A stretch of DNA of 64,000 nucleotides from an uncultured Pelotomaculum sp. (GTDB lineage: Bacteria; Bacillota; Desulfotomaculia; Desulfotomaculales; Pelotomaculaceae). Location: assembly GCA_964543575.1 (NCBI GenBank), contig CAZIYV010000001.1, positions 1,408-65,407 on the forward strand, given 5' to 3'. Below, piece by piece: positions 49,282-64,000 of the stretch (the first letter of the stretch is position 1; each line of letters begins with the position of its first letter). The notes beneath the pieces were generated by a model. The model did not search any database. It was not told where the DNA came from and saw nothing but the letters and a program-made list of their open reading frames with translations. A program made the position numbers and the translations under genes.

Positions 49282-50046
49282 TCAAGGGACTTGCTTTGCT
49301 GCCCCGCAGACAGGACATTTCTGAAGACCAAGCGGAACTTCCAACCCGCAGTTTTCCATCAATTCCACATTAGTTAAAACCTCTGCTGTAGGACCATCAG
49401 ACGCTACCTTTCCATCTTTTAATACTATAGTTCTTGCACAAAGCTCCGTCACCATGTCCAGATCATGTGAAGCGATGATTTTTGTATGTGAAAAGCTCTT
49501 AAGCAGGCTTATCAGCCGTCGTCTGGATTTAGGGTCAAGACCCGATGATGGTTCATCCATGGCCAGAATGTCAGGAATCATGGAAAGAACGGTGGCGATG
49601 GACGCGGCGCGCTTTTCACCTCCCGATAGTTTGTACGGAGCACGGTCTTTCAAGTGGGCAATACCAACCTTTTCAATTGATTGGAGCACTCTTTTCTCCA
49701 CTTCCTGCTCGCTAAGGTTATAGTTGCGCGGGCCGAAAGCAACATCATCATATACCGTGTTCATAAAAAGCTGGTCGTCCGGGTCCTGGAATACCATCCC
49801 TACCCTTTGCCTGATCAGCGGCAGGGTTTTCTTCACCACCGGCATCTCTCCCACGTGGACTTCCCCTTTAGAGGGGAAAAGCACACCGACAAGCAGCATC
49901 AGCAGGGTGGACTTGCCGGCGCCGTTTGCCCCAACTATGCCTACACTTTCCCCGTGGTAAATTCGAAAGGATACGCCATTTAACGCTTCCTGTCCATCCG
50001 GATAAATATAATGCAAATCTTTCACTTCAGTAATATGATGACTCAT
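49282..50046 (-). CDS. cbiO: Co/Ni ECF transporter ATPase
   Basis: GANGAGKST, FQDPDDQLF, LSGGEK and DEP motifs. Confidence 0.9.
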   Translation of the reverse strand: MSHHITEVKDLHYIYPDGQEALNGVSFRIYHGESVGIVGANGAGKSTLLMLLVGVLFPSKGEVHVGEMPVVKKTLPLIRQRVGMVFQDPDDQLFMNTVYDDVAFGPRNYNLSEQEVEKRVLQSIEKVGIAHLKDRAPYKLSGGEKRAASIATVLSMIPDILAMDEPSSGLDPKSRRRLISLLKSFSHTKIIASHDLDMVTELCARTIVLKDGKVASDGPTAEVLTNVELMENCGLEVPLGLQKCPVCGAAKQVP

Positions 50047-50867
50047 TTGACCACTCCTGTTACCAGTGTACCCATCAGCTCCGGGATGTCGAAAAGGCGC
50101 GCCGCGGCAAAGAAGAACGTCCAGCCAATGAGATACATTATATCTGTTATGGTTATTCTCTGGGCGCTTCCAGTCTTGTATTCTCCTATAAACCCTCTTA
50201 AAACCATAGCCTGATATATATTTTGAGCCCTTTCAAAAGTTCTGATGAGCAGGTTGCCGGCCAGCGAGCCCCAGGCATCAGGCTTTACACCTTTATGCAA
50301 AGGCGCGCGCATATGATAAGCCCGCAATACCCTGGCAACTTCGGCCATCAGTACCGAAATATAGCGGTAAGTTAGTACAAGCTGGAGCACAAATACACGG
50401 GGGACATGGAGCAGGCGGAGCGCGGACGATATCCTGCCCATACCGGTTGTGGCAATGACGGTGAGGGCTGACAGGACGGTCAGGATGCTTTTAATGATAA
50501 TAGAAAAGAAGGAAACCCAGCCTCCTGTAAGCACGAACCAATCGGTTGAAAAAACGATCCTGTGATCAAAAAAAGGATTGAAAGCGCCAATGCCTACAGC
50601 GAAAGGGGCAACCAGCAGCATTCGCTTGAGGATGGGTAATAGTGGTATCTCCGCCAGCGCTATGATAACCACGGGGTAAAAGACAAGCGGCAGAAGCCCG
50701 CTTATCTCATATTTGTCAAAAGAAACTACCACTATTAGGTAAATCATAGTGGTAAGAAGCTTGGCTACTGGATGTATGTTGTGAATAACTGTTCGTTTTT
50801 CCGCAAGCTCGTCCAGAAAACGGATTTCGTATAATGACTTTATAATGCCTGCCATATTAGTAATCAA
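50043..50867 (-). CDS. cbiQ: Co/Ni ECF transporter T component
   Basis: HP..KLL, TYRYI and RA..IYQAM.LRGF motifs. Confidence 0.9.
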   Translation of the reverse strand: MITNMAGIIKSLYEIRFLDELAEKRTVIHNIHPVAKLLTTMIYLIVVVSFDKYEISGLLPLVFYPVVIIALAEIPLLPILKRMLLVAPFAVGIGAFNPFFDHRIVFSTDWFVLTGGWVSFFSIIIKSILTVLSALTVIATTGMGRISSALRLLHVPRVFVLQLVLTYRYISVLMAEVARVLRAYHMRAPLHKGVKPDAWGSLAGNLLIRTFERAQNIYQAMVLRGFIGEYKTGSAQRITITDIMYLIGWTFFFAAARLFDIPELMGTLVTGVVK

Positions 50868-50914
50868 GTCCTGTGCAAAATAATAGCGGGGGGGTTAGCC
50901 CACCCGCGTAATAA

Positions 50915-51967
50915 TCAAGCGGCGCCTACTTTTCCCCTTCTTTTGACGATGCTGATGCCAAGTCCGATAAGACAGGCAAGAGCCAGTGTAAGCGTACCCC
51001 CAATTACTCCTGAAACACTTGTACCCGCACTGACAGCCGGCCAGGCTTCCTCGCTCTCCGCGTCGCTTGGTTCCGCTTCACTTTCTGCGGCTTTGAAGCT
51101 GTAATCCGGCAGAAACGCTGTTTTTTCCTGAATTTCTCCAGCTGTCTGGTGAATTCCGTCTGAAGACTCAAGCTCCTCAACTCCGGCAGTTTTGAACATG
51201 GACCATTCCAGGCCATCGGGATGAGAGGAGGCGAACCATGATAAAATGCCCCCGGTAAACAAGGCGACAACAACAAGACCTGTCATAACTTGCTTGATCG
51301 AAATACTACCCAAAGCTTTATCTAAAGAGGCGTTTTCTATTATTTCAGGACGCGCATTCCAGACAAATCCTACAACCGCTGCGGTAACAAGACCTTCCAC
51401 CACCCCGATGGCAAGGTGAATGGGCTGCATCAACAGCACAAATGTGTTGAAAGGCAATTCTGTTTTCCCTGAAAACAGGGTTTCAAGGACCACCCCGAAC
51501 GCGCCAAGCTGTAGTCCGATAATTGCGGACAGCATGGCCGCGCCGAACATGCGGGCAGGGGTGTAACCTTTGCGCATAATCATTTTGTAAATAAGCGGGT
51601 AAGCGATGAAGCAGGTGAAAAATCCCATATTAAAAACGTTGCAGCCATAGGCTAACAAGCCGCCGTCGGCAAAAAACAATGCTTGTATGGCCAAAACAGA
51701 CGCTATCGTGAGGAACCCCGCGTAAGGCCCGAGAAGAACGGCAAGCAGCATTCCACCTCCCAAATGCCCGCTGGAGCCGGTGGCGGGTATGGAGAAGTTG
51801 ATCATTTGGGCGGCAAAAATGAACGCGCCCATAACACCCATTAACGGTATTTTCTTCTGGTCCAAGTCACTTTGAATCTTCTTGATGGAATAAGCGGCAA
51901 CCCCTGCTGACGCCGCCCACATGGTTCCACCCACGATAGGTGAAATCAGGGCATCTGCCATATGCAC
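50915..51967 (-). CDS. cbiM: Co/Ni ECF S component CbiM/NikM fused to a PDGLE domain
   Basis: GTG 51967 gives the conserved Met-His N-terminus (MHMADAL); GSSGHLGG, FADGG and ASSHPDGLEW motifs. Confidence 0.9.
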   Translation of the reverse strand: MHMADALISPIVGGTMWAASAGVAAYSIKKIQSDLDQKKIPLMGVMGAFIFAAQMINFSIPATGSSGHLGGGMLLAVLLGPYAGFLTIASVLAIQALFFADGGLLAYGCNVFNMGFFTCFIAYPLIYKMIMRKGYTPARMFGAAMLSAIIGLQLGAFGVVLETLFSGKTELPFNTFVLLMQPIHLAIGVVEGLVTAAVVGFVWNARPEIIENASLDKALGSISIKQVMTGLVVVALFTGGILSWFASSHPDGLEWSMFKTAGVEELESSDGIHQTAGEIQEKTAFLPDYSFKAAESEAEPSDAESEEAWPAVSAGTSVSGVIGGTLTLALACLIGLGISIVKRRGKVGAA

Positions 51968-52056
51968 AAATATCATCTCCTCAATAAATTATAAACTCAG
52001 AGCAGATTATGTAATCTGTCTTTTGTGATTATGCCGGCACAATAGTTACCCAAGAG

Positions 52057-52449: not shown

Positions 52450-52479
52450 TTGACACTTATACTTTTTTTATAGTAAAGT
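52450..52479 (+). promoter_or_regulatory. Sigma-A promoter for the B12 operon
   Basis: TTGACA-N18-TAAAGT. Confidence 0.5.
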
Positions 52480-52494
52480 AAGACAAAATAAATA

Positions 52495-52642
52495 ATAAAA
52501 GGACAAAACAGGGAAGCCGGATAAAAAATGCCGGCGCGGTCCCGCCACTGTATAAGGGAGCTCCTCTGTAACATGCCACTGGTTAACCCCGGGAAGGCGC
52601 AGAGTGAGCGATGAACTTGAGCCAGGATATCTGTTTGTTCTT
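52495..52642 (+). ncRNA. Cobalamin riboswitch (ends approximate)
   Basis: AGGGAAGCCGG..CCGGCGCGGTCCCGCCACTGTA, GCCACTG..GGGAAGGC and GAGCCAGGA (B12 box). Confidence 0.92.
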
Positions 52643-52710
52643 GTTATCCGCCATTACCCACGAGAGATGGGAAGGAATAACGGCCTTGCATCATGTCCTA
52701 ATAAAGGCAA

Positions 52711-52748
52711 TAACCTCCGCATCTAACGTGCGGAGGTTTTTATTTTTG
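52711..52748 (+). terminator. Riboswitch expression-platform terminator
   Basis: AACCTCCGCA-tctaacg-TGCGGAGGTT followed by TTTATTTTT. Confidence 0.85.
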
Positions 52749-52776: not shown

Positions 52777-53616
52777 ATTATCGAACTTAGGCAGCTGGCT
52801 AAAAATTATGGCAGTATACAGGCTGTCGCCGGGCTGGATCTGGAGATAGGCAGAGGTGAGGTTTTCGGTTTGCTGGGTCCGAACGGCGCCGGTAAAACAA
52901 CGACTTTCCGCATGCTGACCATGCTTACCAAACCCTCCGGCGGCAGCGCGTCAATCAACGGTTGCGAGGTAACCCGTGATTTGCGGAAGGTTAAAAAGGA
53001 GATCGGTGTTGTTCCCCAGCACATGAACCTTGACCAGGAACTGACGGCACGGGAAAACCTGGAGCTGCACGGGCGGCTGCATAAAATGCCAGGGGATCAG
53101 AGGCGGCAGAGGACAGAGGAACTACTCGCCTATGTGGAACTGGCCGACCGGGCCCATGACCTGGCGGGCAAATTTTCAGGCGGCATGAAGCGGCGGCTGA
53201 TGATCGCCCGGGCACTGATGCACCTACCCGGTGTATTGTTTCTTGACGAGCCGACAGCCGGGCTTGATCCCCAGGCGCGGCGCAATATCTGGGACCTGAT
53301 CAGGAGAATGAACAGCGAAGGGATGACTGTCCTGCTGACCACCCATTACATTGAAGAGGCGGAAGTGCTGTGCCGCCGGGTCGGGATTATGGATCACGGA
53401 CGGCTGATTGCCCTCGGCACGCCGGCAGAGCTGAAAAACAAGGTAGGGGAGATCGTCGTTGAGGCGCTCAATCACGGCGATACTGAATACCGGTTTTTCG
53501 CCGGACGGGAACAGGCAATGCATTATGCCGGGAGTCTGGCGGACAATGTGCTGATCCGGGAAGCCAATTTGGAAGACGTTTTTGTTGAATTAACCGGGCG
53601 CAAGGTAGGTGACTGA
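52777..53616 (+). CDS. ABC-2/NodI-like exporter ATPase; probable ATT start at 52777
   Basis: The frame extends upstream of the called TTG as (I)IELRQLAKNYGSIQAVAGLDLEIGRGEVFGLLGPNGAGKTT; FSGGMKRR and FLDEPT motifs. Confidence 0.88.
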   Translation: MIELRQLAKNYGSIQAVAGLDLEIGRGEVFGLLGPNGAGKTTTFRMLTMLTKPSGGSASINGCEVTRDLRKVKKEIGVVPQHMNLDQELTARENLELHGRLHKMPGDQRRQRTEELLAYVELADRAHDLAGKFSGGMKRRLMIARALMHLPGVLFLDEPTAGLDPQARRNIWDLIRRMNSEGMTVLLTTHYIEEAEVLCRRVGIMDHGRLIALGTPAELKNKVGEIVVEALNHGDTEYRFFAGREQAMHYAGSLADNVLIREANLEDVFVELTGRKVGD

Positions 53617-53618
53617 AG

Positions 53619-54350
53619 ATCGATTTCTATACCGTGTTCTGGCGGGAAATGGTTGTCTTAAGGCGCAGCTTCGGCAAGTTCTTTTCATCCCGCCTGGTCG
53701 GGCCCCTGCTTTACCTGGTGGCCTTCGGCTGGGGGCTGGGGCGGAGCATCCAGGTTGACGGAGGCAATTACCTGGAGTTCATTGTGCCGGGCATCATCGC
53801 GCTGGGTGCCATGAACACCAGTTTCAACGCTGTGGGCGTCAACCTCAATATCAGTCGGCTCTACTACAAGACTCTGGACGAATACCTGATCGCGCCGATC
53901 AGCGCCGCCGCCTTTGTGTCGGGCAAGGTGCTGGCCGGGAGCGTGCGCGGGCTGATCGATGCCCTGGTTATCCTGGCGCTGGCCTTCCTGTTCGGGGCGC
54001 ACCTGGCTGTAAGCGGCTGGTTCTTCCTGGTGGTGCTGCTGACCTGCTTTGTTTTTTCCGCCCTGGGGGTGGTGGCCGCTATGGTTGTCAATTCGCACGA
54101 AGACATGGCCAATTTCTCCACGTTCGTAATTTTGCCGATGTCTTTTTTGTGCGGCACCTTTTTTTTACCGGACCGTCTGCCGAAAGTATTTGGCTATATT
54201 ATCGACGTCCTGCCCCTGACCCACGCCAGCTACCTGTTGCGGTCTCTCGCCTCCGGCCAGGGACTCATACCGTTATCCCTGGCTGTGCTTGCTTTCTATG
54301 CCGTGATTTTATTTGCGGTAGGTGCGGCGGTTGTGCGCACGGTCAGGTAG
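53619..54350 (+). CDS. ABC-2 permease (NodJ-like); probable ATC start at 53619
   Basis: YLEFIVPGI, PMSFLCGTFF and LPLTH motifs; six TM helices. Confidence 0.88.
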   Translation: MDFYTVFWREMVVLRRSFGKFFSSRLVGPLLYLVAFGWGLGRSIQVDGGNYLEFIVPGIIALGAMNTSFNAVGVNLNISRLYYKTLDEYLIAPISAAAFVSGKVLAGSVRGLIDALVILALAFLFGAHLAVSGWFFLVVLLTCFVFSALGVVAAMVVNSHEDMANFSTFVILPMSFLCGTFFLPDRLPKVFGYIIDVLPLTHASYLLRSLASGQGLIPLSLAVLAFYAVILFAVGAAVVRTVR

Positions 54351-54489: not shown

Positions 54490-56106
54490 ATGAAAACGAG
54501 AATTATTAACCGGCGCCTGGTTATTTTGACAATAATGGTTTGTTTTTTAACTGTCCTGCCGGTGTTGTTCTTATTTGACCGGGCGGAGGCGGCAGAACCG
54601 CAGTTGTTGGACAGGGCAGTACAGTACCTCCGCAATGAATATGCGGAAAACGGCATTATTAATTCAGACATGGGTGTTGGATCTCAATCTTTTTACATAT
54701 TGAACCAGGCAGGCGCGGATGTCAGCTCCTGGAGGCATGATGGGATCAGCCTTAGTGACGCGGTAATGAGCGCGATCAATAGTGATATAGCAAATGCTGA
54801 CCAAATTTCCGCGAAACTCCTGGCCCAGGACCTGGCGGCGGCGAAGGCGCTCGGTCAGGAAAGCCTGGCTGGGCAACTGCTCCTGATCCTGAGAAACAGG
54901 CAGGACAGCGAAGGATTTGATGACATGGGGCCGCTGAGCATATACAGCAATGTGCCGGCCTTTGAAATTTTGAGCAGGGTTGGCCTGATCGACCAGATTG
55001 ATGCCGGTTTGGCAAGGAGTTACATCCTGGGGGCGCAGTACACCGGGGCGGGAGAGAAACATTACGGCAGCTGGGGCTCTACAGACAATGGCAAGTTCTA
55101 TGCAGATTTCATCGCTGTTACGGGAGCGGTGCGGATGCTGCACCGCCTAGATCCTGGCGGCACTGACAATGCAATCCAGGCGGCTATTAAAAACGGCCTG
55201 GGCTGGATCAAAAGCCAGCAAAAGGCCGGCGGCAACTTTGTAGCCGGTATGGACGACACGCTGATAGACACCTGTGATGTGATTATAACCCTGAAGGAAC
55301 TGGGGATGGATCCTGGCGCCTGGGTGAGCAGCGAGGGCAAGAGCGCCGTCGATTATTTGAGGAGCGAGGCGCTGAATCCTGACGGGAGCTTTGGCCAGTC
55401 ACAGAACGTCATGGACGTAACCTGGGTGCTTTGGGCTTACCTGGAGTTGGAGGAAGAGGAAGCGGGTGTGGAGCCGCAGGCTCCACTGGAACCGCAATCT
55501 CAAATGGAACCGCAAGTGCAGCCTGCGTCGCAAGTTTTTAAAGACACGGTGGACCATTGGGCGAAAAATGCTATCACCGATTTGGCCGGAAAAGGTATTA
55601 CAGCGGGTTATGCTGACGGCACTTTCAAACCCGAGGCGCAGGTGACACGCAGCGAAATAGCCGCCATGATGGTGCGGCTTCTGCAGCCGGAACCAGCATC
55701 GACGCTTGACCTGCAGGCAATAGGTGAAAAGTTTAAAGATTCCGGTGATATTCCCAAGTGGGCGCTGGATTCAGCAGCCGCTGCGCTGAGGGAGGGGCTT
55801 ATCTCGGGCAGTCCCCAGCCGGACGGAACTTTTAGTTTTGAAGGGAATAGGCAAGTGAGCCGCGCTGAGTTGTCTGTCATCATGGCCCGGGTTATCGAGA
55901 TGAAGTTGGGGCAGACGGCGCCCGGAAATTTAGATTTTGCCGATAATGACCTGATTCCGGATTGGGCCAGGGAAGCTATTGGCATAGTGTACGCCAAAGG
56001 AATTGCCGGCGGGTATCCCGACCGGACATACCGGGCGGAAAATCCGGTGACCAGGGCGGAAGCTGCTTTTATGATTATGCGCCTGGCGGAACAGATTGAG
56101 AAATGA
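54490..56106 (+). CDS. Secreted alpha/alpha-barrel (prenyltransferase-repeat-like) protein with three SLH domains
   Basis: Signal peptide ending AEA; WIKSQQKAGGNF and LNPDGSFG repeats; FKDTVDHWA, GYADGTFKP..VTRSE and VTRAEAA SLH motifs. Confidence 0.85.
   Translation: MKTRIINRRLVILTIMVCFLTVLPVLFLFDRAEAAEPQLLDRAVQYLRNEYAENGIINSDMGVGSQSFYILNQAGADVSSWRHDGISLSDAVMSAINSDIANADQISAKLLAQDLAAAKALGQESLAGQLLLILRNRQDSEGFDDMGPLSIYSNVPAFEILSRVGLIDQIDAGLARSYILGAQYTGAGEKHYGSWGSTDNGKFYADFIAVTGAVRMLHRLDPGGTDNAIQAAIKNGLGWIKSQQKAGGNFVAGMDDTLIDTCDVIITLKELGMDPGAWVSSEGKSAVDYLRSEALNPDGSFGQSQNVMDVTWVLWAYLELEEEEAGVEPQAPLEPQSQMEPQVQPASQVFKDTVDHWAKNAITDLAGKGITAGYADGTFKPEAQVTRSEIAAMMVRLLQPEPASTLDLQAIGEKFKDSGDIPKWALDSAAAALREGLISGSPQPDGTFSFEGNRQVSRAELSVIMARVIEMKLGQTAPGNLDFADNDLIPDWAREAIGIVYAKGIAGGYPDRTYRAENPVTRAEAAFMIMRLAEQIEK
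55470..55521 (+). repeat. Three imperfect 18-bp repeats (EPQxxx linker)
   Basis: GAGCCGCAG / GAACCGCAA / GAACCGCAA at an 18-bp period. Confidence 0.6.
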
Positions 56107-56127
56107 TGAAAACAGGGGGAATGAAAT

Positions 56128-58908
56128 TTGTCCAGGGGTATTAAAGGAATTATTAGAAAGTTAAGCCTGCTGCTGGTCGTTATAATGGTTGCGGCGGGGC
56201 TGTTCGCGGCGCCTGGCATTAATGCAGCCAGGGCGGCAGGCTCATCGGCAGCCAGCGCCGTGCAGTTTCTCCAGAACGATTACACGGCTAACGGGCTGAA
56301 CAACGCCGACGGCGGGGTGGGCTCCTATGCCCTTTATGTGCTGAATCAGGCGGGAGTTGATGTCAGCGCCTGGAAGTATAATGGAACCAGTCTCGAAGAC
56401 GCGGTAGTAAGCGCGATAAATGTTGATTTATTAAACTCAGGAGCATCCGCCAAGCTTCTGGTCCAGGACCTGGCGGCGGCAAAGTCGCTGGGGAGAGACA
56501 GCCTGTCTGCCCAGCTGGCGCAGGTACTGCAGGGCAGACAGAGCAACACGGGATTCGACAGCAACTCTTACAGCGACATACCGGCCTATGACCTTTTGGG
56601 CCGGGCAGGCGCAATTAGTGAGATAAATGCTGACTTTGGGAAGGGCTGCATTTTAGCGGCGCAGAACACAACAGTCGGCGACGCTGCCTACGGCAGCTTT
56701 GGCGGTGAATACGACGGAATATTTTATCCCGACTTCATGACCACGGCCGAAGCAGTGCGGGCGCTTAATTACTTGGACACTGCCAAGAGCGATGCCCAGG
56801 TACAGACAGCCATCAATAACGGCCTGGACTGGATCCAGAAACAGCAGCAGGACGACGGCAGCTTCACGGGGTCGGCATGGGATGACCCGGTTGTTGACAC
56901 TTCAGAAGTAATTATTACCTTAGATGTGCTGGGTATGGATCTCGCCGGCTGGGAAAGCAGCGCCGGCAATACTGCCGTTGACTACATGATGAACGAGGCC
57001 CTTAACGATGACGGGAGCTTCGGAACGTCAAAGAACGTTATGGATGCCACCTGGGCGCTCTGCGCATATAATATGATGGATGCCCAGTTTTACCTGGATC
57101 CCTCCAGCGTGGACTTAAAGGTTGGCGGCACGGCGCAGCTGTCGGCGTCATGGCAAAATAATGAAGGGACAACTGATGTAACGCAGGCAGCCCAGTGGAC
57201 TGCGGCCGACAGCAGCATTGCTTCGGTCGACAGCAGTGGCCTGGTCACCGCTCTCAAAGAAGGCGAAACGGAAGTCTATGCAGTTTATGGCGGGCTGACG
57301 GCAACGGCTGCTGTGACCGTGAGTTCCTCAACTAACGGCGGAGGGGGTGACGGGTCAGAAGTAATGGTTAGTCTGGCCGTGGTGGGATCGAACAAGGTTC
57401 TTTTATATGGCCCCTCAACTGTCTCTGTGAATGAGACAAATAAATGGGGGCTCACCGCATTGGGCGCACTGGACGCCTCCGGCATTTCCTACACGACCTC
57501 CTCGTGGTCATACGGCGATCTGGTGAATTCAATCAAAGGGCTGGCCAACAGCGGCCTGTCCGGCTGGATGTATACCGTTAACGGTTCAAATCCGGGTGTC
57601 GGAGCTGATAAATATAAAATTAAAAACAAAAACAAGATTATTTTTTATTACAGCGAAAGCATGGATCAGAAGCCTCCCCAATGGGACGAGCTGGAAGGTT
57701 TTTCTGCCGGCGGTGGTGGTGTTGTTGCCGCTTCTGACGATCTGCCTGACCCTGTGACCGACACTGACTTAAAAGCTGCTCTCAGGAATGCCGGCAGTGC
57801 CGGCCAGGTTGCCCTGCAGGCGGCTGATGATGAAACCTCACTGGCACTTTCCAGCGATCAGATAACTGAAGTATTGAGTAAAGACAAACCGCTGGCTGTT
57901 ACCATTCAGGGTGTGCAGATCATCCTGTCGCCGGAAAGCCTGGAAGTACCGGAGCTGAAAGATGAGGATGCGGCTTTCTTACAGTTCAAAGTCGAGAAAT
58001 TAAGCAGCGAGGATGTCCAAAGCCTGGCAAATCCCTCTGCTGTCATGTTGAAGCTGGCCGGCGATGTTTACGAACTAACCATCCAGGTTGTAAATGAAGA
58101 AGGCACGCTGCAGGAAATTGAGGAGTTCCCTACCTGCACTGTACTGCTGCCTGTACCGGCAGGTCTGGAAGATGCGGCTGCCGCCGGCAGTTTAATGGCT
58201 TATTTATACAATGAGGATAGTGAAGCGTGGGAAAAAGCCGGCGGCACATATGACGCGGCCGGCGCTGCCATCGGCTTTAATGTCAGTCACTTCAGCAAGT
58301 ATGCCCTGCTGGAAACTGTTCCCCAGCCTGTGGAGAAGGTTGCTTTCAATGATATCGTTGGACACTGGGCGCAGGAGGAAATTGAGTATATGGCAGCGAA
58401 AGGTTACGTGGCTGGTGTAGGCAGCAGTGAATTCGCGCCGGATGCCGGGATTACACGGGCTGAATTCTCCGCCATCCTGGCCCGCATGGCCGGCCTGATG
58501 GACGATGCCGCTGCCGCTGCGCGCTTCAGCGACGTGCCGGCCGGCGCCTGGTACCAGGGCACGGTGGGCGCCGCGACCACCGCCGGCTTGGTGTACGGAA
58601 CGTCTGAAAACAGCTTTATGCCAGGTGAGCCGGTCACCCGCGAGCAGATGGCGGCTATGATAGTACGATTTATGTCTAAGAATAGCGCAGATATGGCTGT
58701 CGGTGATACCGGTGCAGCTGAACTGCTGGCAGGATTCAGCGACAGTGCGGATATTTCACCCTGGGCCTGTTCGCCAGTGGCCCTGGCGGTCAGGGAGGGG
58801 CTGATGGCCGGACGGGAAAGCGGTATGTTTGTGCCGCGCGGCAGCGCTACCAGGGCGGAGGCGACCGTGGTGCTGTACCGGGTGATGCAGAAAGAAACAA
58901 TTGAGTAA
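56128..58908 (+). CDS. S-layer-anchored protein: alpha/alpha barrel + Ig-like (Big_2) + DUF4430 + three SLH domains
   Basis: Signal peptide; barrel paralogous to 54490; WTAADSSIASVDSSGLVTALKEGET (Big_2); VNSIKGLANSGLSGWMYTVNG..KIIFYY (DUF4430); C-terminal SLH repeats. Confidence 0.85.
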   Translation: MSRGIKGIIRKLSLLLVVIMVAAGLFAAPGINAARAAGSSAASAVQFLQNDYTANGLNNADGGVGSYALYVLNQAGVDVSAWKYNGTSLEDAVVSAINVDLLNSGASAKLLVQDLAAAKSLGRDSLSAQLAQVLQGRQSNTGFDSNSYSDIPAYDLLGRAGAISEINADFGKGCILAAQNTTVGDAAYGSFGGEYDGIFYPDFMTTAEAVRALNYLDTAKSDAQVQTAINNGLDWIQKQQQDDGSFTGSAWDDPVVDTSEVIITLDVLGMDLAGWESSAGNTAVDYMMNEALNDDGSFGTSKNVMDATWALCAYNMMDAQFYLDPSSVDLKVGGTAQLSASWQNNEGTTDVTQAAQWTAADSSIASVDSSGLVTALKEGETEVYAVYGGLTATAAVTVSSSTNGGGGDGSEVMVSLAVVGSNKVLLYGPSTVSVNETNKWGLTALGALDASGISYTTSSWSYGDLVNSIKGLANSGLSGWMYTVNGSNPGVGADKYKIKNKNKIIFYYSESMDQKPPQWDELEGFSAGGGGVVAASDDLPDPVTDTDLKAALRNAGSAGQVALQAADDETSLALSSDQITEVLSKDKPLAVTIQGVQIILSPESLEVPELKDEDAAFLQFKVEKLSSEDVQSLANPSAVMLKLAGDVYELTIQVVNEEGTLQEIEEFPTCTVLLPVPAGLEDAAAAGSLMAYLYNEDSEAWEKAGGTYDAAGAAIGFNVSHFSKYALLETVPQPVEKVAFNDIVGHWAQEEIEYMAAKGYVAGVGSSEFAPDAGITRAEFSAILARMAGLMDDAAAAARFSDVPAGAWYQGTVGAATTAGLVYGTSENSFMPGEPVTREQMAAMIVRFMSKNSADMAVGDTGAAELLAGFSDSADISPWACSPVALAVREGLMAGRESGMFVPRGSATRAEATVVLYRVMQKETIE

Positions 58909-58917
58909 ACTAGTTTT

Positions 58918-58951
58918 AACACGGGAGCGGGTGTGATCCTGCTCCTGTGTT
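58918..58951 (+). terminator. Intra-operon stem-loop (weak terminator or mRNA stabiliser)
   Basis: AACACGGGAGCGGG-tgtgat-CCTGCTCCTGTGTT, with no strong U-tract. Confidence 0.5.
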
Positions 58952-58979
58952 ATGCTGTATCTGACAACGAGGTGATTTT

Positions 58980-59636
58980 ATGAAGCGCAAGCTCATTTAT
59001 GTTATTGCTTTTCTTGTTATTCTGGGCGTGGTAATTGGGCCGGCCCTTTACATGCAAAAGGTATTTAGCTCCGACCAGCAAAATAAACAGGTGGAGAGTA
59101 CCGGCGCCAATAGCGGAGTAAGTGCCGGAGCAGCCGACAAGGAACAGCCTGCCGCTGAAACAAAACAGGTCGTGACGACGCCGGCGCAGCAGGCGGCCGC
59201 ACCGGACAGCGTTTCCCGGGAAGATGCGGCGACTGCCCGGATTCCGGGAGATACCGCGTCGGCGCCGCCGCCTGCGGCGTCGGCGCCTGAGAGCGGCTGC
59301 ATGGTGGGGATCGCCATAGTGGGCAAAAACGGCGAACAGCTTTTCCATGCCGGTCAGGTCCTTGTGAAAAAGGACAATAAGTGGGGAATTACCGCTCTGG
59401 GCGCCCTTGACGCCAGCGGTGTTTCTTATACCACGTCCCCGACCTGGCCCGATTTTGTTTACTCTATCAGCGGACAGGCCAACAGCGGTGTGTCAGGCTG
59501 GATGTATTCAGTGAACGGTGATGTCCCCATGCATATGGCCGACAAGCACCCGGTGAAAGCGGGGGACAGGGTGATCTGGTGGTACAGCAACAGCATGGAA
59601 CAGCCACAGCCGCTGTGGGATGATCTGACTAAATAA
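58980..59636 (+). CDS. Membrane-anchored DUF4430 protein
   Basis: N-terminal TM helix, Ala/Pro-rich linker, then NKWGITALGALDASG..SGWMYSVNG..VIWWYS, close to the DUF4430 segment of 56128. Confidence 0.85.
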   Translation: MKRKLIYVIAFLVILGVVIGPALYMQKVFSSDQQNKQVESTGANSGVSAGAADKEQPAAETKQVVTTPAQQAAAPDSVSREDAATARIPGDTASAPPPAASAPESGCMVGIAIVGKNGEQLFHAGQVLVKKDNKWGITALGALDASGVSYTTSPTWPDFVYSISGQANSGVSGWMYSVNGDVPMHMADKHPVKAGDRVIWWYSNSMEQPQPLWDDLTK

Positions 59637-59656
59637 TTAACAAAGGGGCGGCAGAT

Positions 59657-60586
59657 TTGTTCGACGAGCTATACTACCAGGGAAAAGGACTATTTTTGCA
59701 GAGCTTCCACCCGGCTGCGGTCCTGGTATACCTTTTTGTACTCCTTGTGCTCAGCCTGCTTTACGACAATCCCCTTTACCTCCTGTCTCTGCTGCTCCTG
59801 CTGGCCCTCTTAATTAAAGGAGTGGACGGCATGGAAGCCTGGGAGGGTTTTTTAAAAGCGGGTGTCTTTTTGATGCTTATGGTCATGGTTATCAACCCGC
59901 TGGTGATCAGGGCCGGATCCACAATTATCTGGCACGGACCTGTTTTGCCTTTTCTGGGCCGGCTGGACATATCAATGGAAGCCATTTATTTTGGGGCTGT
60001 CTCCGGCCTCAGGCTGCTGGTGATCATGAGCATCTTCTGTCTTTACAACCTGATGGTCAATCCGGATAATGTGCTGAACCTCTTTTCAAAAGCAGCCGGC
60101 AAATCGGTGCTGATGATCGCCCTGGCCACGCGGATGTTTCCCACGATGGTCAGGGACCTGAAGCGGATCAGGGAAGTGCTGCAGTTCCGCGGCGTCGATT
60201 TCGACGAGGGTAATTTGTGGCAAAGGGCGAAGAAGTATTCAGGCCTTTACAATGTCATGCTGCTGTCCTCTCTGGAGGATTCCATGGAGATAGCCGAATC
60301 TATGCAGGCCAGGGCTTATGGCAGCGGCAGGCGCTCGGTTTACAGCCGGAGCCTGCTGCGACCCAGGGATTACCTCAGCGCCGGCGGCAGCCTGCTGGCT
60401 CTGTTAGCCGCGATCTGGGGCCTGCAATACGGGTGCGGCCAGTACGCCTTTTACCCGGCGGCCGACGTCCTGATCAAAGGCAGATCGACTCTCGTTGCCC
60501 TGGCTGCTGTGCTTTTTTACCTGTCTGTGCCGCTTATTTTGAGTGAGGGGTGGAAGAATTGCCGCTTTTTGAAGTCGAAAATCTAA
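59657..60586 (+). CDS. ECF transporter T component
   Basis: HPA, RMFP, QFRG and AESMQARAYG motifs. Confidence 0.9.
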   Translation: MFDELYYQGKGLFLQSFHPAAVLVYLFVLLVLSLLYDNPLYLLSLLLLLALLIKGVDGMEAWEGFLKAGVFLMLMVMVINPLVIRAGSTIIWHGPVLPFLGRLDISMEAIYFGAVSGLRLLVIMSIFCLYNLMVNPDNVLNLFSKAAGKSVLMIALATRMFPTMVRDLKRIREVLQFRGVDFDEGNLWQRAKKYSGLYNVMLLSSLEDSMEIAESMQARAYGSGRRSVYSRSLLRPRDYLSAGGSLLALLAAIWGLQYGCGQYAFYPAADVLIKGRSTLVALAAVLFYLSVPLILSEGWKNCRFLKSKI

Positions 60587-62262
60587 CCTATTTTTATTCT
60601 GAAACTGAAAAAGCCGCGCTGGACGATATCAGCCTGGAAATTGGCGATGGTGAGTTCGTCCTGGTGGCGGGCGGCTCCGGCTCGGGTAAGTCCTCGCTGG
60701 CCAGGGCGCTGGCGGGGTTGATCCCCGATTTTTACGGCGGCCGGATCGGCGGCAGGGTGCTTTTTAGAGGGCGGGACTTCAGGGCGATGGACCGCAGAAA
60801 GCTGGCCAGGGAAGTGGGCATGGTCTTCCAGGACCCGGAAAAGCAGATCGTGCAGACCCATGTCGAGGCGGAAATTGCCTTTGGCCTGGAGAACCTGGGG
60901 TTGGATAATGAAGAGATGCTGCGCCGGGTGGCCGAGGTGATCTGCTTCACGAACCTGGAGCAGATCAGGGATGCCTTTACGGCCAACCTGTCCGGCGGCC
61001 AGAAGCAGAAGCTGGCGCTGGCCTCCGTCCTGGCCATGCAGCCGCACGTGCTGGTCCTTGATGAGCCAACTTCGCAGCTGGATCCCGTCTCGGCGGAAGA
61101 GATCCTCAACCTGGTTAAGCGGCTTAACGAGGAAATGGGTTTTACGGTGATCATGATCGAGCAGCGGCTGGAGCGGTGCTACCACCTGGCGGACCGGGTC
61201 CTGCTAATGGAAAAAGGCAGAATTACCTGTGACGGGACTGCCCGGGAGGTGGCCCGTAAAACTATTAAAGGATGCACGCCTTTCGTGCCGCCGGTGGCCA
61301 GGTTTTTTGCCGGTCTGGACGTCCCGTCGGTGCCACTGACGGTCAAGGAGGGCAGGAAACTGCTGCGGTCCTGTCTAAAAGATATTAAGCCTGCACTGGA
61401 TAGGCAGCCCGGCTTACACCTAAGTGGTATCCGCGGCGCCGACCAGGCGGTATGTAGTAGCGCTGTCACCCTGAAAAACCTGTGGTTTACCTACCCGGGC
61501 GGGCAGGAGGTTTTAAAGGACGTCAGCATAGATATTAAGGAAGGGGAATTTGTAGCTGTCCTGGGCGAAAACGGCGCGGGTAAGTCGACAATGCTCAGGC
61601 AGTTAACCGGCATGCTCAAACCGGACCGGGGCAGTGTCGAGGTGCTGGGGAGAGACATGAGCAGGAACGGGTTCAAGGAGATCAGGAGGCATACCGCGTA
61701 CCTGTCCCAGAACCCCAATGACTATCTTTTTCAGGACACCGTGGAGGACGAGCTTCTATTCACTCTGAAGAATTTCGGCTTAAAAAATTTATATATTGTC
61801 GATGAGATGCTGGAAAAATTTCATCTGTCACAGTATCGCAAGACCAATCCGCGGGACCTCAGTAGCGGTGAGAGGCAGCGGGTTGCTTTAGCCTCGGTAC
61901 TGGTCACCGGGCCCAAGCTGATCATCCTGGACGAGCCGACCAGGGGGATTGATTTCCGCCTGAAGGCGGAACTGGGCAGACTGCTGCAGCAGGAGGCGGA
62001 AAGAGGCTGCACGGTGATCGTGGTGACCCACGACGTGGAGTTTGCCGCCGAGTACGCTGCCCGGGCGGTGATGATGTTTGCGGGTAGGATTGTCAGCGAC
62101 GGGGAAAAGCATGATGTGCTGGGCAAATCAGTGTTTTATTCTCCCCAGATGGGCAAGATGTGCCGGGGCATCTGTGACGGGGTGCTCACTTTTGCCGAGG
62201 CGAAAGAGAGGATCTACCCCTTGCCGGCAGCGGGGCGGAACGACTTGATAGCACAGGAGTGA
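60550..62262 (+). CDS. ECF transporter fused double ATPase (A-A')
   Basis: Two Walker A motifs (GSGSGKS, GENGAGKST); LSGGQKQ and LSSGERQ. Confidence 0.92.
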   Translation: MEELPLFEVENLTYFYSETEKAALDDISLEIGDGEFVLVAGGSGSGKSSLARALAGLIPDFYGGRIGGRVLFRGRDFRAMDRRKLAREVGMVFQDPEKQIVQTHVEAEIAFGLENLGLDNEEMLRRVAEVICFTNLEQIRDAFTANLSGGQKQKLALASVLAMQPHVLVLDEPTSQLDPVSAEEILNLVKRLNEEMGFTVIMIEQRLERCYHLADRVLLMEKGRITCDGTAREVARKTIKGCTPFVPPVARFFAGLDVPSVPLTVKEGRKLLRSCLKDIKPALDRQPGLHLSGIRGADQAVCSSAVTLKNLWFTYPGGQEVLKDVSIDIKEGEFVAVLGENGAGKSTMLRQLTGMLKPDRGSVEVLGRDMSRNGFKEIRRHTAYLSQNPNDYLFQDTVEDELLFTLKNFGLKNLYIVDEMLEKFHLSQYRKTNPRDLSSGERQRVALASVLVTGPKLIILDEPTRGIDFRLKAELGRLLQQEAERGCTVIVVTHDVEFAAEYAARAVMMFAGRIVSDGEKHDVLGKSVFYSPQMGKMCRGICDGVLTFAEAKERIYPLPAAGRNDLIAQE

Positions 62263-62266
62263 AAAT

Positions 62267-62896
62267 GTGATGGGTAGCAACTGGGGACTTTACATAACAA
62301 TGGGCGGCATTTTCGCCGTCGCCCTGCTCATGCTCGGCATGGAGAAAAAGGCAGGACTTAACGCGCGGCAGGTATCGCTCATTGCCATGCTGGCCGCATT
62401 GTGCGCTGCGGGCAGGGCGGTGACCGGCGTTGCGCTACTCTTTCTGCAGCCTACCATGTTCCTGGTCCAGGTGACGGGGTTTGTCTTTGGCGCGCGGACC
62501 GGCTTCTTTGTGGGGGCGATGACGCCTTTGATTTCCAACTTCTTTATCGGCCAGGGCCCTTGGACCCCCTGGCAGATGATCTGCTGGGGGCTGGTGGGCA
62601 TTTCCGGCGCGGCGGTCAGGGTTCTGTTTCCCGGGGCGGGTAATAAAACCATGATCGCGCTGTGCTTTTTCTGGGGCTACCTTTACGGCGCCGTTATGGA
62701 CATCTGGCAGTGGAGCGTCTTTCTCAGCCCGTTGACGTTTAAGTCTTATTTTCTACTCTGGCTGGCGGGCTTCAGCTTTGATTCCCTGCGCGCTGTCGGC
62801 AACCTGTTCTTTTGCGCCGCCCTGGGCAGCCAGTCGGTTAAAATACTGCGGTACTTCCATAAAAAGATGGATGTCCGCTACCTGGATAATTTATAA
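62267..62896 (+). CDS. ECF S component (CbrT-like, probably corrinoid-specific)
   Basis: AALCAAGR, QP, SNFFIGQGPWTPWQM..WG and FD..RA.GN motifs; B12 riboswitch operon. Confidence 0.82.
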   Translation: MMGSNWGLYITMGGIFAVALLMLGMEKKAGLNARQVSLIAMLAALCAAGRAVTGVALLFLQPTMFLVQVTGFVFGARTGFFVGAMTPLISNFFIGQGPWTPWQMICWGLVGISGAAVRVLFPGAGNKTMIALCFFWGYLYGAVMDIWQWSVFLSPLTFKSYFLLWLAGFSFDSLRAVGNLFFCAALGSQSVKILRYFHKKMDVRYLDNL

Positions 62897-62917
62897 GGGG
62901 GTTTAGTTTATTTGAAG

Positions 62918-64000
62918 ATGAAAAAGGGCCTGCTGTTAATATTTATCTCGCTGCTCTTCTGCGCCGCTACGCCGGGAGCGCTTATTACCGGGGAGGCGGC
63001 TGCGGTTACGCCGCCCGAGGTGGAGTGGTCCTACACCTTTGAAGAGGGGGAGGGTCACTTTGTGGAGCAGACAAAGGACGGGGGCCTTATTTTGACCGGC
63101 TGGATTGAGTCAGGCGGGGCCGGCTCCGACGTTTTCCTCGCTAAGTACGACGGCGGCGGTAGCAGGTTATGGTTCAACACTCACAGGGGCAATGGTTACA
63201 GTGACAGCCACTGTGTCAGGGAGGTCAGCGGCGGCGGTTTCATTATTGTTGGCGAAACGAAGTCCAGGGACGCGTATGACCATGATGTGTACGTGGTGCG
63301 CACGGACGGGAAGGGCGGGCTGCTGTGGGAAAAAACATTCGGCGGGGTGCGCTGTGACTATGCCTGGTCCGTCCAGCAGACAAAAGACGGTGGCTTTATC
63401 ATTGCTGGAGGGACGGAGTCCTTCGGCGCCGGGATATATGATGTCTACTTGATTAAACTGGACGCTTCCGGCAACGAGATCTGGGAAAAAACATACGGCG
63501 GGGCCGGTTCCGACTGTGGCTACGCCGTGCTGCAGCTTGACGACGGGGGGTACCTCATCGCAGGGAACGCGGAGTCTTATGGCACGGGCAATCCTGATGT
63601 GTATCTCCTGAAGACGGACAGCGATGGAAATATGGCCTGGCAGAAGACATACGGCGGCAGCGGTTCGGAATACGGCTGGTCCCTGTTGGAAGCAGTTGAT
63701 AACGGGTATGTAATTGCCGGGGAGAAGGAAATTGCCGGTGACCAGGGTGGCGTATTTGCGGCTTACCTACTGAAAGTCGACACTGATGGCAATGAACTCT
63801 GGGAAAATACGTACGGTAGCGGGAAAGGCAGTTCGTTCTACGGCGCCTGCCTGGCGGGAGACGGCTATGTCTTGACGGGCAAGAGAGAGTCCGCTGGCGG
63901 CTACGACCTTTACGTGGTTAAAACTGATCAGGAAGGCAGCCCGGGCTGGGAGAAAACGGTGGATGGCGCCGGCTCCAACAGCGCTTACGCCGCTGCGCAG
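62918..64000 (+). CDS. Secreted beta-propeller repeat protein; partial, runs off the right edge
   Basis: Not in the ORF track. Starts MKKGLLLIFISLLFCAATPGA, then repeated WEKTYGG...QT.DGG(F/Y)IIAG..ES.G.G..DVYL.K.D..GN units. Confidence 0.82.
   Translation, partial: MKKGLLLIFISLLFCAATPGALITGEAAAVTPPEVEWSYTFEEGEGHFVEQTKDGGLILTGWIESGGAGSDVFLAKYDGGGSRLWFNTHRGNGYSDSHCVREVSGGGFIIVGETKSRDAYDHDVYVVRTDGKGGLLWEKTFGGVRCDYAWSVQQTKDGGFIIAGGTESFGAGIYDVYLIKLDASGNEIWEKTYGGAGSDCGYAVLQLDDGGYLIAGNAESYGTGNPDVYLLKTDSDGNMAWQKTYGGSGSEYGWSLLEAVDNGYVIAGEKEIAGDQGGVFAAYLLKVDTDGNELWENTYGSGKGSSFYGACLAGDGYVLTGKRESAGGYDLYVVKTDQEGSPGWEKTVDGAGSNSAYAAAQ

What the first reader, a model, noticed from the sequence alone, without database searches (positions are those of the whole stretch)
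54490..64000. B12-riboswitch-controlled surface capture system built from transcobalamin-like domains in whole and split forms
Seen: three consecutive genes encode (i) alpha-barrel + SLH, (ii) the paralogous alpha-barrel + Ig + DUF4430 + SLH and (iii) a membrane-tethered DUF4430 alone. They are followed by ECF T, AA' and S components and a secreted beta-propeller. Known: animal transcobalamin and intrinsic factor clamp B12 between an alpha6/alpha6 barrel and a small beta-domain, and DUF4430 is related to that beta-domain. Inference: (ii) is a bacterial transcobalamin-like protein, while (i) and (iii) are complementary halves. Together they could relay corrinoids from the S-layer to the ECF S component, analogous to Isd haem relay.
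Basis: partly seen in the sequence, partly recalled or inferred. Interest (0 to 1): 0.85.

Follow-up and report, generated by a model that had tools for sequence, protein, structure and literature searches.

The report
Vitamin B12 capture proteins feeding importer
A vitamin-B12 riboswitch heads an operon for a B12-type membrane importer and three surface proteins built from the two domains of animal B12 carriers, one whole and two as single halves, which likely catch B12-like cofactors outside the cell; this kind of system is already predicted in print, and binding here is untested.

Summary
A cobalamin riboswitch precedes barrel+SLH (i), barrel+Ig+DUF4430+SLH (ii), membrane-anchored DUF4430 (iii), ECF T/AA'/S and a propeller. 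The model of (ii) hits transcobalamin, haptocorrin and intrinsic factor first, the S component is a CbrT homologue, the barrels lack the cyclase DxDD motif, and 20 of 20 related loci carry the riboswitch.

The idea is largely in print: whole forms were predicted in 2007 (PMC1796856), and a split alpha/beta pair feeding an ECF was proposed for L. sakei, there for haem (10.1101/864751). This scan noted it before on other DNA.

The split reading gets real but indirect support. Lone barrels of separate lineages recur beside a lone DUF4430 or the S component (24 of 24), once fused to S. But (iii) occurs without (i), models do not close in the holo-transcobalamin geometry, and no complex prediction was available. 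New here: (iii) carries a His-Met motif that tracks with the propeller. Verdict: new variant of a predicted kind, interest 0.42.

The parts
52450..52479 (+). sigma-70-type promoter-like site (TTGACA, 18 nt, TAAAGT)
   Evidence: consensus match 10 of 12; not proof of function
52469..52652 (+). cobalamin riboswitch aptamer
   Evidence: RF00174, 81 bits, E 2.2e-18, full length
52712..52748 (+). intrinsic terminator (11-pair stem, T tail), likely the expression platform of the riboswitch
   Evidence: role inferred from position
52777..53616 (+). ABC-2 (DrrA-like) ATPase; likely starts at ATT behind a strong Shine-Dalgarno site
   Evidence: TIGR01188 above cut-off; start inferred
53613..54350 (+). 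ABC-2 permease (start 53613 or 53634); role in the operon unexplained
   Evidence: ABC2_membrane E 6.6e-26
54490..56106 (+). gene (i): signal-like N-terminus, alpha6/alpha6 barrel (about residues 36-322), three SLH repeats; no DUF4430
   Evidence: conserved orthologue group
56128..58908 (+). gene (ii): signal-like N-terminus, barrel (35-321), Big_2 (321-397), DUF4430 beta-grasp (about 411-525), unassigned region, three SLH repeats
   Evidence: (pLDDT 92.3 for residues 35-525)
58917..58952 (+). 15-pair hairpin without a U tract between (ii) and (iii); might set the ratio of wall proteins to membrane proteins
   Evidence: function inferred
58980..59636 (+). gene (iii): N-terminal membrane segment, Ala/Pro linker, lone DUF4430 with Met184-His185-Met186
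   Evidence: anchor from hydropathy only
59657..60586 (+). ECF T component
   Evidence: CbiQ family E 4.1e-15
60550..62262 (+). fused ECF ATPase AA'
   Evidence: ECF_ATPase_1 and _2 above cut-off
62267..62896 (+). ECF S component, CbrT homologue
   Evidence: only PDB match at E up to 1 is 6FNP chain A, E 2.8e-9; 6FNP is named as ECF-CbrT in earlier finding e1-2335008, the call itself labels it 'Membrane protein'
62912..64000 (+). beta-propeller-repeat protein, 428 aa, continues to 64198 beyond the window, C-terminal hydrophobic anchor; a BtuR/CobA gene follows at 64260-64799
   Evidence: not folded here

Best explanation
This is a cobalamin-riboswitch-led operon for a CbrT-like ECF importer whose three transcobalamin-like surface proteins likely capture corrinoids outside the membrane and would pass them to the S component. 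Steps. (1) Low B12 lets transcription pass the terminator at 52712 (elements shown, switching inferred). (2) Protein (ii), held on the wall by SLH repeats, would bind a corrinoid first on its DUF4430 domain and then close its own barrel on it, as transcobalamin does (fold shown in a model, binding inferred). (3) Protein (iii), tethered in the membrane on a flexible linker, would take the corrinoid on its lone DUF4430, capped in trans by a barrel, most simply that of (i) (inferred from gene neighbourhoods). (4) The S component imports it and BtuR adenosylates it (homology). The surface proteins would raise capture at low concentration rather than be required for transport.
For: Riboswitch upstream in the same orientation in 20 of 20 family loci scanned with Rfam (20 of the 21 relatives with a barrel match were fetched). 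All Foldseek rows listed at ranks 1-15 for the model of (ii) are transcobalamin, haptocorrin or intrinsic factor (best E 3.2e-9); the isolated human beta domain 5NP4 matches at TM 0.75, rmsd 2.9 A. S component matches 6FNP. The genome has riboswitch-led salvage genes CobU, CobQ, CbiB, CobS and CobT families and methylmalonyl-CoA mutase, while CbiD and CbiC were not found (89.8% complete). In the family the barrel is in 16 of 20 genomes without CbiD and 6 of 16 with it (kin not independent). For pairing in trans: in 40 phylum loci, 23 have a lone barrel, and all 24 such genes lie next to a lone DUF4430 (15), next to the S gene (8) or fused to S (1, L123). Lone barrels come from separate lineages, and the (i) type and the stalk type never share a locus (13 and 23 of 60 loci, both in 0). 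L039 places (i), (iii), S and propeller in a row, apart from (ii). Barrel (i) keeps the polar residues at the starts of the alternate helices that (ii) conserves. Separated transcobalamin domains assemble only with cobalamin, and the beta domain binds it alone (PMC5599065).
Against: Neither model closes as holo-transcobalamin does: rmsd 21-24 A over both domains, with the Ig spacer and in a natural homologue without it; an open apo state would explain this, so it is neutral at best. The barrel alone is closer to class II terpene cyclases (Z 21.4, rmsd 3.5, 256 aligned) than to the intrinsic-factor alpha domain (Z 18.7, rmsd 3.0, 232 aligned). No sequence match to transcobalamin in the PDB at E up to 10. 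17 of 40 phylum loci and 23 of 60 closer loci show no lone barrel (some of the latter are cut by contig ends); L024, L079 and L127 have a lone DUF4430 with ECF genes and no barrel in the locus. In this window (i) is not adjacent to (iii). The only genetic test found on a split system showed haem uptake (10.1101/864751). Purified ECF-CbrT transports B12 without accessory proteins (PMC5997447).
Confidence: 0.55

Rival explanations
1. Same substrate, no split pair. Protein (iii) binds corrinoid on its beta domain alone, or works with the anchored propeller, and (i) is a dispensable extra barrel that binds weakly on its own or caps the DUF4430 of (ii), like the second barrel of double-barrel forms of (ii).
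For: The His-Met motif of (iii) is in 18 of 60 loci; 16 of these 18 have the propeller, the other two end at a contig edge, and no propeller locus lacks the motif. Only 13 of the 18 show (i); two with the upstream DNA in view lack it. (i) is a clade nested among the barrels of whole proteins. Double-barrel (ii) proteins coexist with (i) (L005, L006, L009, L011), so barrel and DUF4430 counts do not balance. The transcobalamin beta domain binds cobalamin alone (PMC5599065).
Against: It does not explain why lone barrels of separate lineages sit beside the lone DUF4430 or the S gene in 24 of 24 cases, nor the S-barrel fusion.
Confidence: 0.28
2. The barrels are enzymes (relics of class II terpene cyclase or prenyltransferase chemistry, or an unknown activity that frees corrinoid from protein) or purely structural wall domains, and only the DUF4430 domains bind.
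For: Best structural neighbours of the barrel alone are terpene cyclases; best sequence match is squalene-hopene cyclase, E 1.3e-6. Several acidic residues are invariant (D202, D253, E260 in (ii)).
Against: The cyclase DVDD aligns to DFMT in (ii). A DxDD string occurs in 0 of 56 (i)-type rows and 3 of 87 (ii)-type rows anywhere in the first 340 residues. The proteins are predicted to be exported, are fused to DUF4430 and are riboswitch-led.
Confidence: 0.1
3. The system imports haem or another tetrapyrrole, as reported for the L. sakei split system; the His-Met motif would ligate iron.
For: Deleting lsa1836-1840 lowered haem uptake (10.1101/864751). His and Met are common haem ligands (recalled).
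Against: Cobalamin riboswitch in 20 of 20 loci, BtuR in the operon, CbiJ in relatives, enrichment in genomes without CbiD; hemin did not compete at L. delbrueckii CbrT (PMC5997447).
Confidence: 0.07

Closest known systems
Bacterial transcobalamin-like SLBB proteins (Burroughs et al. 2007, PMC1796856; read parts 1-3 of 6 and a term search)
   Same: Toroid fused N-terminally to the SLBB domain (example from Desulfotomaculum), Ig fusions (Moorella), a second paralogous SLBB gene in the operon, CbiO/CbiQ-like neighbours, hosts that usually lack B12 synthesis, B12 scavenging predicted.
   Different: The word riboswitch does not occur in that paper; in the parts read it describes no lone barrel gene, no S component, no SLH anchor, no His-Met subtype or linked propeller gene. 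Prediction only.
[quoted passage not shown]
   Same: ECF S, AA', T plus separately encoded beta-like (Lsa1839) and alpha-like (Lsa1840) transcobalamin halves, modelled as a heterodimer and proposed to hand ligand to the S component.
   Different: Proposed and tested (whole-operon deletion) for haem; the passages read mention no whole protein, SLH anchor or riboswitch, and show no direct binding.
ECF-CbrT of Lactobacillus delbrueckii (PDB 6FNP; PMC5997447; read passages)
   Same: Homologous S component (E 2.8e-9); gene cluster with an adenosyltransferase; transports cobalamin and cobinamide.
   Different: Group II (shared module) there, dedicated T and AA' in the operon here; the neighbouring cbrS gene is named but not studied in the passages read.
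Animal transcobalamin, haptocorrin and intrinsic factor
   Same: alpha6/alpha6 barrel followed by a beta-grasp domain; top Foldseek hits.
   Different: 11-20% identity, no sequence-level match; Ig spacer and SLH anchor; closed clamp geometry not reproduced in the models; contact residues could not be mapped.
Bacteroides BtuJ/BtuH/BtuG extracellular cobamide relay (review PMC13616437; read passages)
   Same: Riboswitch-controlled surface capture proteins upstream of a transporter, including a B12-binding seven-bladed propeller (BtuG).
   Different: Outer-membrane TonB-dependent system with other proteins; no homology between this propeller and BtuG was tested by fold, and the Atlas hits for a homologue name none.

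Membership tests
Bacterial transcobalamin-like (SLBB) clade | DUF4430 / transcobalamin beta-grasp domain | tested here: met
   Pfam above cut-off in (ii) and (iii); 5NP4 TM 0.75, rmsd 2.9 A for the model of (ii)
Bacterial transcobalamin-like (SLBB) clade | alpha/alpha toroid fused to the beta-grasp domain | tested here: met
   12 helices in residues 6-282 of the model; toroid matches at Z 17-21
Bacterial transcobalamin-like (SLBB) clade | Export signal, second paralogue and CbiO/CbiQ-like genes in the operon | tested here: met
   hydropathy (no signal-peptide predictor run)
Animal transcobalamin family | Barrel closer to the transcobalamin alpha domain than to other toroids | tested here: inconclusive
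   Terpene cyclases Z 19-21, intrinsic-factor alpha domain Z 18.7-19.1
Animal transcobalamin family | Two domains clamp one corrinoid | tested here: inconclusive
   Models open, rmsd 21-24 A to holo structures; no B12 ligand can be modelled; apo domains are known not to associate (PMC5599065)
Animal transcobalamin family | Corrinoid binding | not testable with these tools
   needs ITC or UV-vis
CbrT-type ECF transporter | CbrT-like S component with T and A components | tested here: met
CbrT-type ECF transporter | B12 regulon context | tested here: met
   riboswitch and terminator, 20 of 20 relatives, BtuR; co-transcription itself not tested
Split alpha/beta system of the L. sakei type | Separately encoded alpha-only and beta-only exported proteins with ECF genes | tested here: met
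   genes (i) and (iii)
Split alpha/beta system of the L. sakei type | The two halves form a complex | not tested
Class II terpene cyclase | Catalytic DxDD motif | tested here: not met
   DVDD of 1GSZ aligns to DFMT; 0 of 56 and 3 of 87 rows hold any DxDD
Isd-like directional relay | Affinity gradient and direct transfer between wall and membrane proteins | not testable with these tools
   needs transfer kinetics

The most novel reading that the evidence does not exclude
Bacillota run a wall-to-membrane corrinoid relay on mix-and-match transcobalamin halves: a whole SLH-anchored carrier loads a membrane-tethered beta half, which is capped in trans by a lone barrel that has been recruited more than once and is sometimes fused to the S component. 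In this lineage His185 of (iii) would replace the missing base of cobinamide or base-off cobamides, and the anchored propeller would be a further B12 binder, a Gram-positive counterpart of BtuG. It would be a living model of the ancestor of animal B12 carriers.
Probability: 0.25. Interest if true: 0.72.

Novelty: new variant of a known kind. Interest (0 to 1): 0.42.

Why it matters
DUF4430 genes were found in 89 of 301 sampled genomes of this phylum, mostly as a large and a small protein side by side, yet ten literature searches showed no direct binding data for a bacterial member. If they bind corrinoids, this is a main route by which Gram-positive anaerobes, including relatives of syntrophic propionate oxidisers, compete for B12, and it tests the 2007 proposal that animal B12 carriers came from these bacteria. 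This locus holds the whole and both half forms, over 50% identical to each other, so clamp, trans-complementation and transfer can be tested with one set of proteins. The basic idea is not new.

Tried and rejected
Sequence searches of the PDB with barrel, (ii), (iii) and DUF-only profiles found no transcobalamin at E up to 10, so contact residues could not be mapped. Folding a natural barrel-DUF4430 homologue without the Ig spacer did not give the closed clamp. One-to-one barrel:DUF4430 stoichiometry was rejected (ratios from 0:1 to 3:2). The idea that (i) is a recent strain-specific duplicate was rejected: it is a clade of 14 rows across several families (quick tree, the careful search did not finish; barrels under 200 aa, with X, or duplicated were left out). 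The idea that His185 marks partnership with (i) was rejected: it persists where (i) is absent. A whole-genome check for whole proteins in five genomes with split-only loci was swamped by SLH hits; two of the five (G119, G059) have a large DUF4430 protein elsewhere, so 'split only' holds for the 20 kb loci, not for genomes. Sequencing runs: no RNA holder listed. The Atlas search for the propeller, run with a homologue, gave generic propeller clusters only. The Dehalobacter corrinoid-starvation paper (PMC4285132, passages) does not cover this system. Rodionov et al. 2009 and the intrinsic-factor structure paper were not held under the ids tried; CbrS/CbrT predictions are known here only through PMC5997447. 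No supplements were read; Additional file 1 and Figure 2 of PMC1796856 may show lone-toroid genes.
Full report
Observation. Gene (i) is a barrel plus three SLH repeats, gene (ii) a barrel, Big_2, DUF4430 and three SLH repeats, gene (iii) a hydrophobic N-terminal segment, a linker and DUF4430. The barrels share 52% identity and the DUF4430 domains 54%; the genome has no other copy of either. The unit starts earlier than stated: a promoter-like site, a cobalamin riboswitch at 52469-52652 and a terminator at 52712 precede an ABC-2 ATPase and permease, then (i). Gaps between genes are 139 bases or less. Past the window edge the propeller ends in a hydrophobic anchor and is followed by a BtuR/CobA gene. 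Co-transcription is inferred, not shown.

Host context. Close protein relatives carry Pelotomaculum and Desulfofundulus names. The genome has six cobalamin riboswitches; two lead CobU, CobQ, CbiB, CobS and CobT family genes. Methylmalonyl-CoA mutase is present. CbiD and CbiC were not found in this 89.8% complete genome, though all three same-genus genomes have CbiD. In the family, the barrel occurs in 16 of 20 genomes without CbiD and 6 of 16 with it (Fisher p 0.016, overstated because kin are not independent). This fits scavenging.

Structure. The model of (ii) residues 35-525 is confident (pLDDT 92.3, pTM 0.73). All Foldseek rows listed at ranks 1-15 are transcobalamin, haptocorrin or intrinsic factor, and the human beta domain matches at TM 0.75. 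That ranking reflects both domains being present in order; rmsd over both is 21-24 A, so the clamp is not closed. A natural homologue without the Ig spacer gave the same open result. Separated transcobalamin halves assemble only with cobalamin (PMC5599065, parts 1-2 of 4 read; PMC11107200, passages), so this neither supports nor refutes. The barrel alone scores Z 21.4 with class II terpene cyclases and 18.7 with the intrinsic-factor alpha domain: a generic toroid. The cyclase DVDD motif aligns to DFMT, and DxDD is in 0 of 56 and 3 of 87 homologues. Both barrel types conserve the same polar residues near the starts of alternate helices, which suggests one shared ligand face (inference). The S component's only PDB match is 6FNP.

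Close relatives. All 20 family loci scanned have a cobalamin riboswitch upstream. Gene (i) is an orthologue group in 10 of 36 family genomes, directly upstream of (ii) in the 9 where the contig shows it, but two relatives keep (ii) and (iii) without it. In 60 further loci, the best of 463 matches, 37 have a lone barrel: 13 of the (i) type, 23 of a type first seen with a stalk domain and mostly placed right after the lone DUF4430, 2 of a third type; the first two never co-occur. A quick tree makes (i) a clade (SH-aLRT 96) nested among barrels of whole proteins, far from the stalk type. These sets overlap, so their counts must not be added.

Phylum. DUF4430 was found in 89 of 301 sampled genomes. 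I fetched 40 loci chosen by hand from the strongest hits, one per genome, so they are not a random sample. 32 have a whole protein, 39 a lone DUF4430, 23 a lone barrel, 33 a riboswitch-like hit by my own profile. All 24 lone-barrel genes lie beside a lone DUF4430 (15), beside the S gene (8) or fused to S (L123). L096 has riboswitch, barrel, DUF4430, T, AA', S as its own unit. This is the best evidence that lone barrels act at the membrane step; operons are short, so some adjacency is expected by chance and I ran no shuffle control. Against an obligatory pair: 17 of 40 loci lack a lone barrel, and L024, L079 and L127 have none of any kind in view.

A subtype. Protein (iii) carries Met184-His185-Met186 in the loop between the last two strands, the connector that PMC1796856 lists among B12-contacting elements (placement inferred from the model of (ii)). 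The His is at least 90% conserved in 102 homologues of (iii) and absent at that place from all rows of the (ii) alignment that the pattern could read (80 of 87). The motif is in 18 of 60 loci, and 16 of them have the propeller, the two others ending at a contig edge; every propeller locus has the motif. It could be shared ancestry alone. Cobinamide took a His ligand in crystals of the transcobalamin beta domain, which the authors call non-specific (PMC5599065), so axial ligation of base-free corrinoids is a lead only.

What is known. PMC1796856 predicted toroid-SLBB fusions in this very group as B12 scavengers with a second paralogue and CbiO/CbiQ-like genes. 10.1101/864751 proposed a split alpha/beta pair handing ligand to an ECF S component in L. 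sakei and showed lower haem uptake on deleting the operon. PMC5997447 showed that ECF-CbrT alone moves cobalamin and cobinamide and that hemin does not compete. Earlier findings of this scan report the same system, and S-barrel fusions, in other genomes; I took the lead to the 2007 paper from them. My ten searches found no binding data for a bacterial member; subscription journals are mostly not covered.

Verdict. It works most likely as a corrinoid capture layer for a CbrT-like ECF importer. That corrinoids are the substrate is likely (about 0.85); capping in trans by a barrel is the leading but unproven mechanism (0.55); that (i) and (iii) are the specific pair and that transfer is directional are each less than even. 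It is a variant of a predicted, partly studied kind. Interest 0.42.

Noticed in passing
window 52777-54350: An ABC-2 (exporter-type) ATPase and permease sit directly under the cobalamin riboswitch and travel with the operon in some relatives, before or after it. Role unexplained. The ATPase seems to start at ATT, as in L004, L010 and L078.
   Followed up: partly
L123:3613-5826 (-): ECF S component fused to a barrel and SLH repeats (737 aa) in a one-contig genome of the same phylum, in an operon that also has a whole protein and a lone DUF4430.
   Followed up: partly
window 58917-58952: Strong hairpin without a U tract after (ii); 25 of 44 loci have a hairpin at z below -2 in this gap against 10 mononucleotide shuffles each, a weak control.
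   Followed up: partly
window 49282-51976 (-): CbiM-PDGLE, CbiQ and CbiO-like genes of a cobalt/nickel-type ECF transporter run divergently from the riboswitch, although ring-synthesis genes CbiD and CbiC were not found.
   Followed up: no
L087 (G000:C1:66296-66489 and 67104-67814): A second cobalamin riboswitch just past btuR leads a DUF3793 gene.
   Followed up: no
L086 (G000:C73:3400-6100, -): A cobalamin riboswitch leads a zinc alcohol-dehydrogenase-family gene and a Glycos_transf_3-family gene; possibly lower-ligand synthesis (guess).
   Followed up: no
L004:3784-4548 and equivalents in L003, L006, L009, L011, L012: Relatives carry a CbiJ gene as first gene of this operon, several in genomes where CbiD was not found; the window's operon lacks it.
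   Followed up: no
L088, L089, L096, L098, L102: Whole proteins with several DUF4430 domains and one or two barrels (up to 1769 aa), suggesting multivalent capture.
   Followed up: no
window 57750-58320: About 200 residues of (ii) between DUF4430 and SLH have no Pfam match here; some homologues carry PF00791 in the precomputed list.
   Followed up: no
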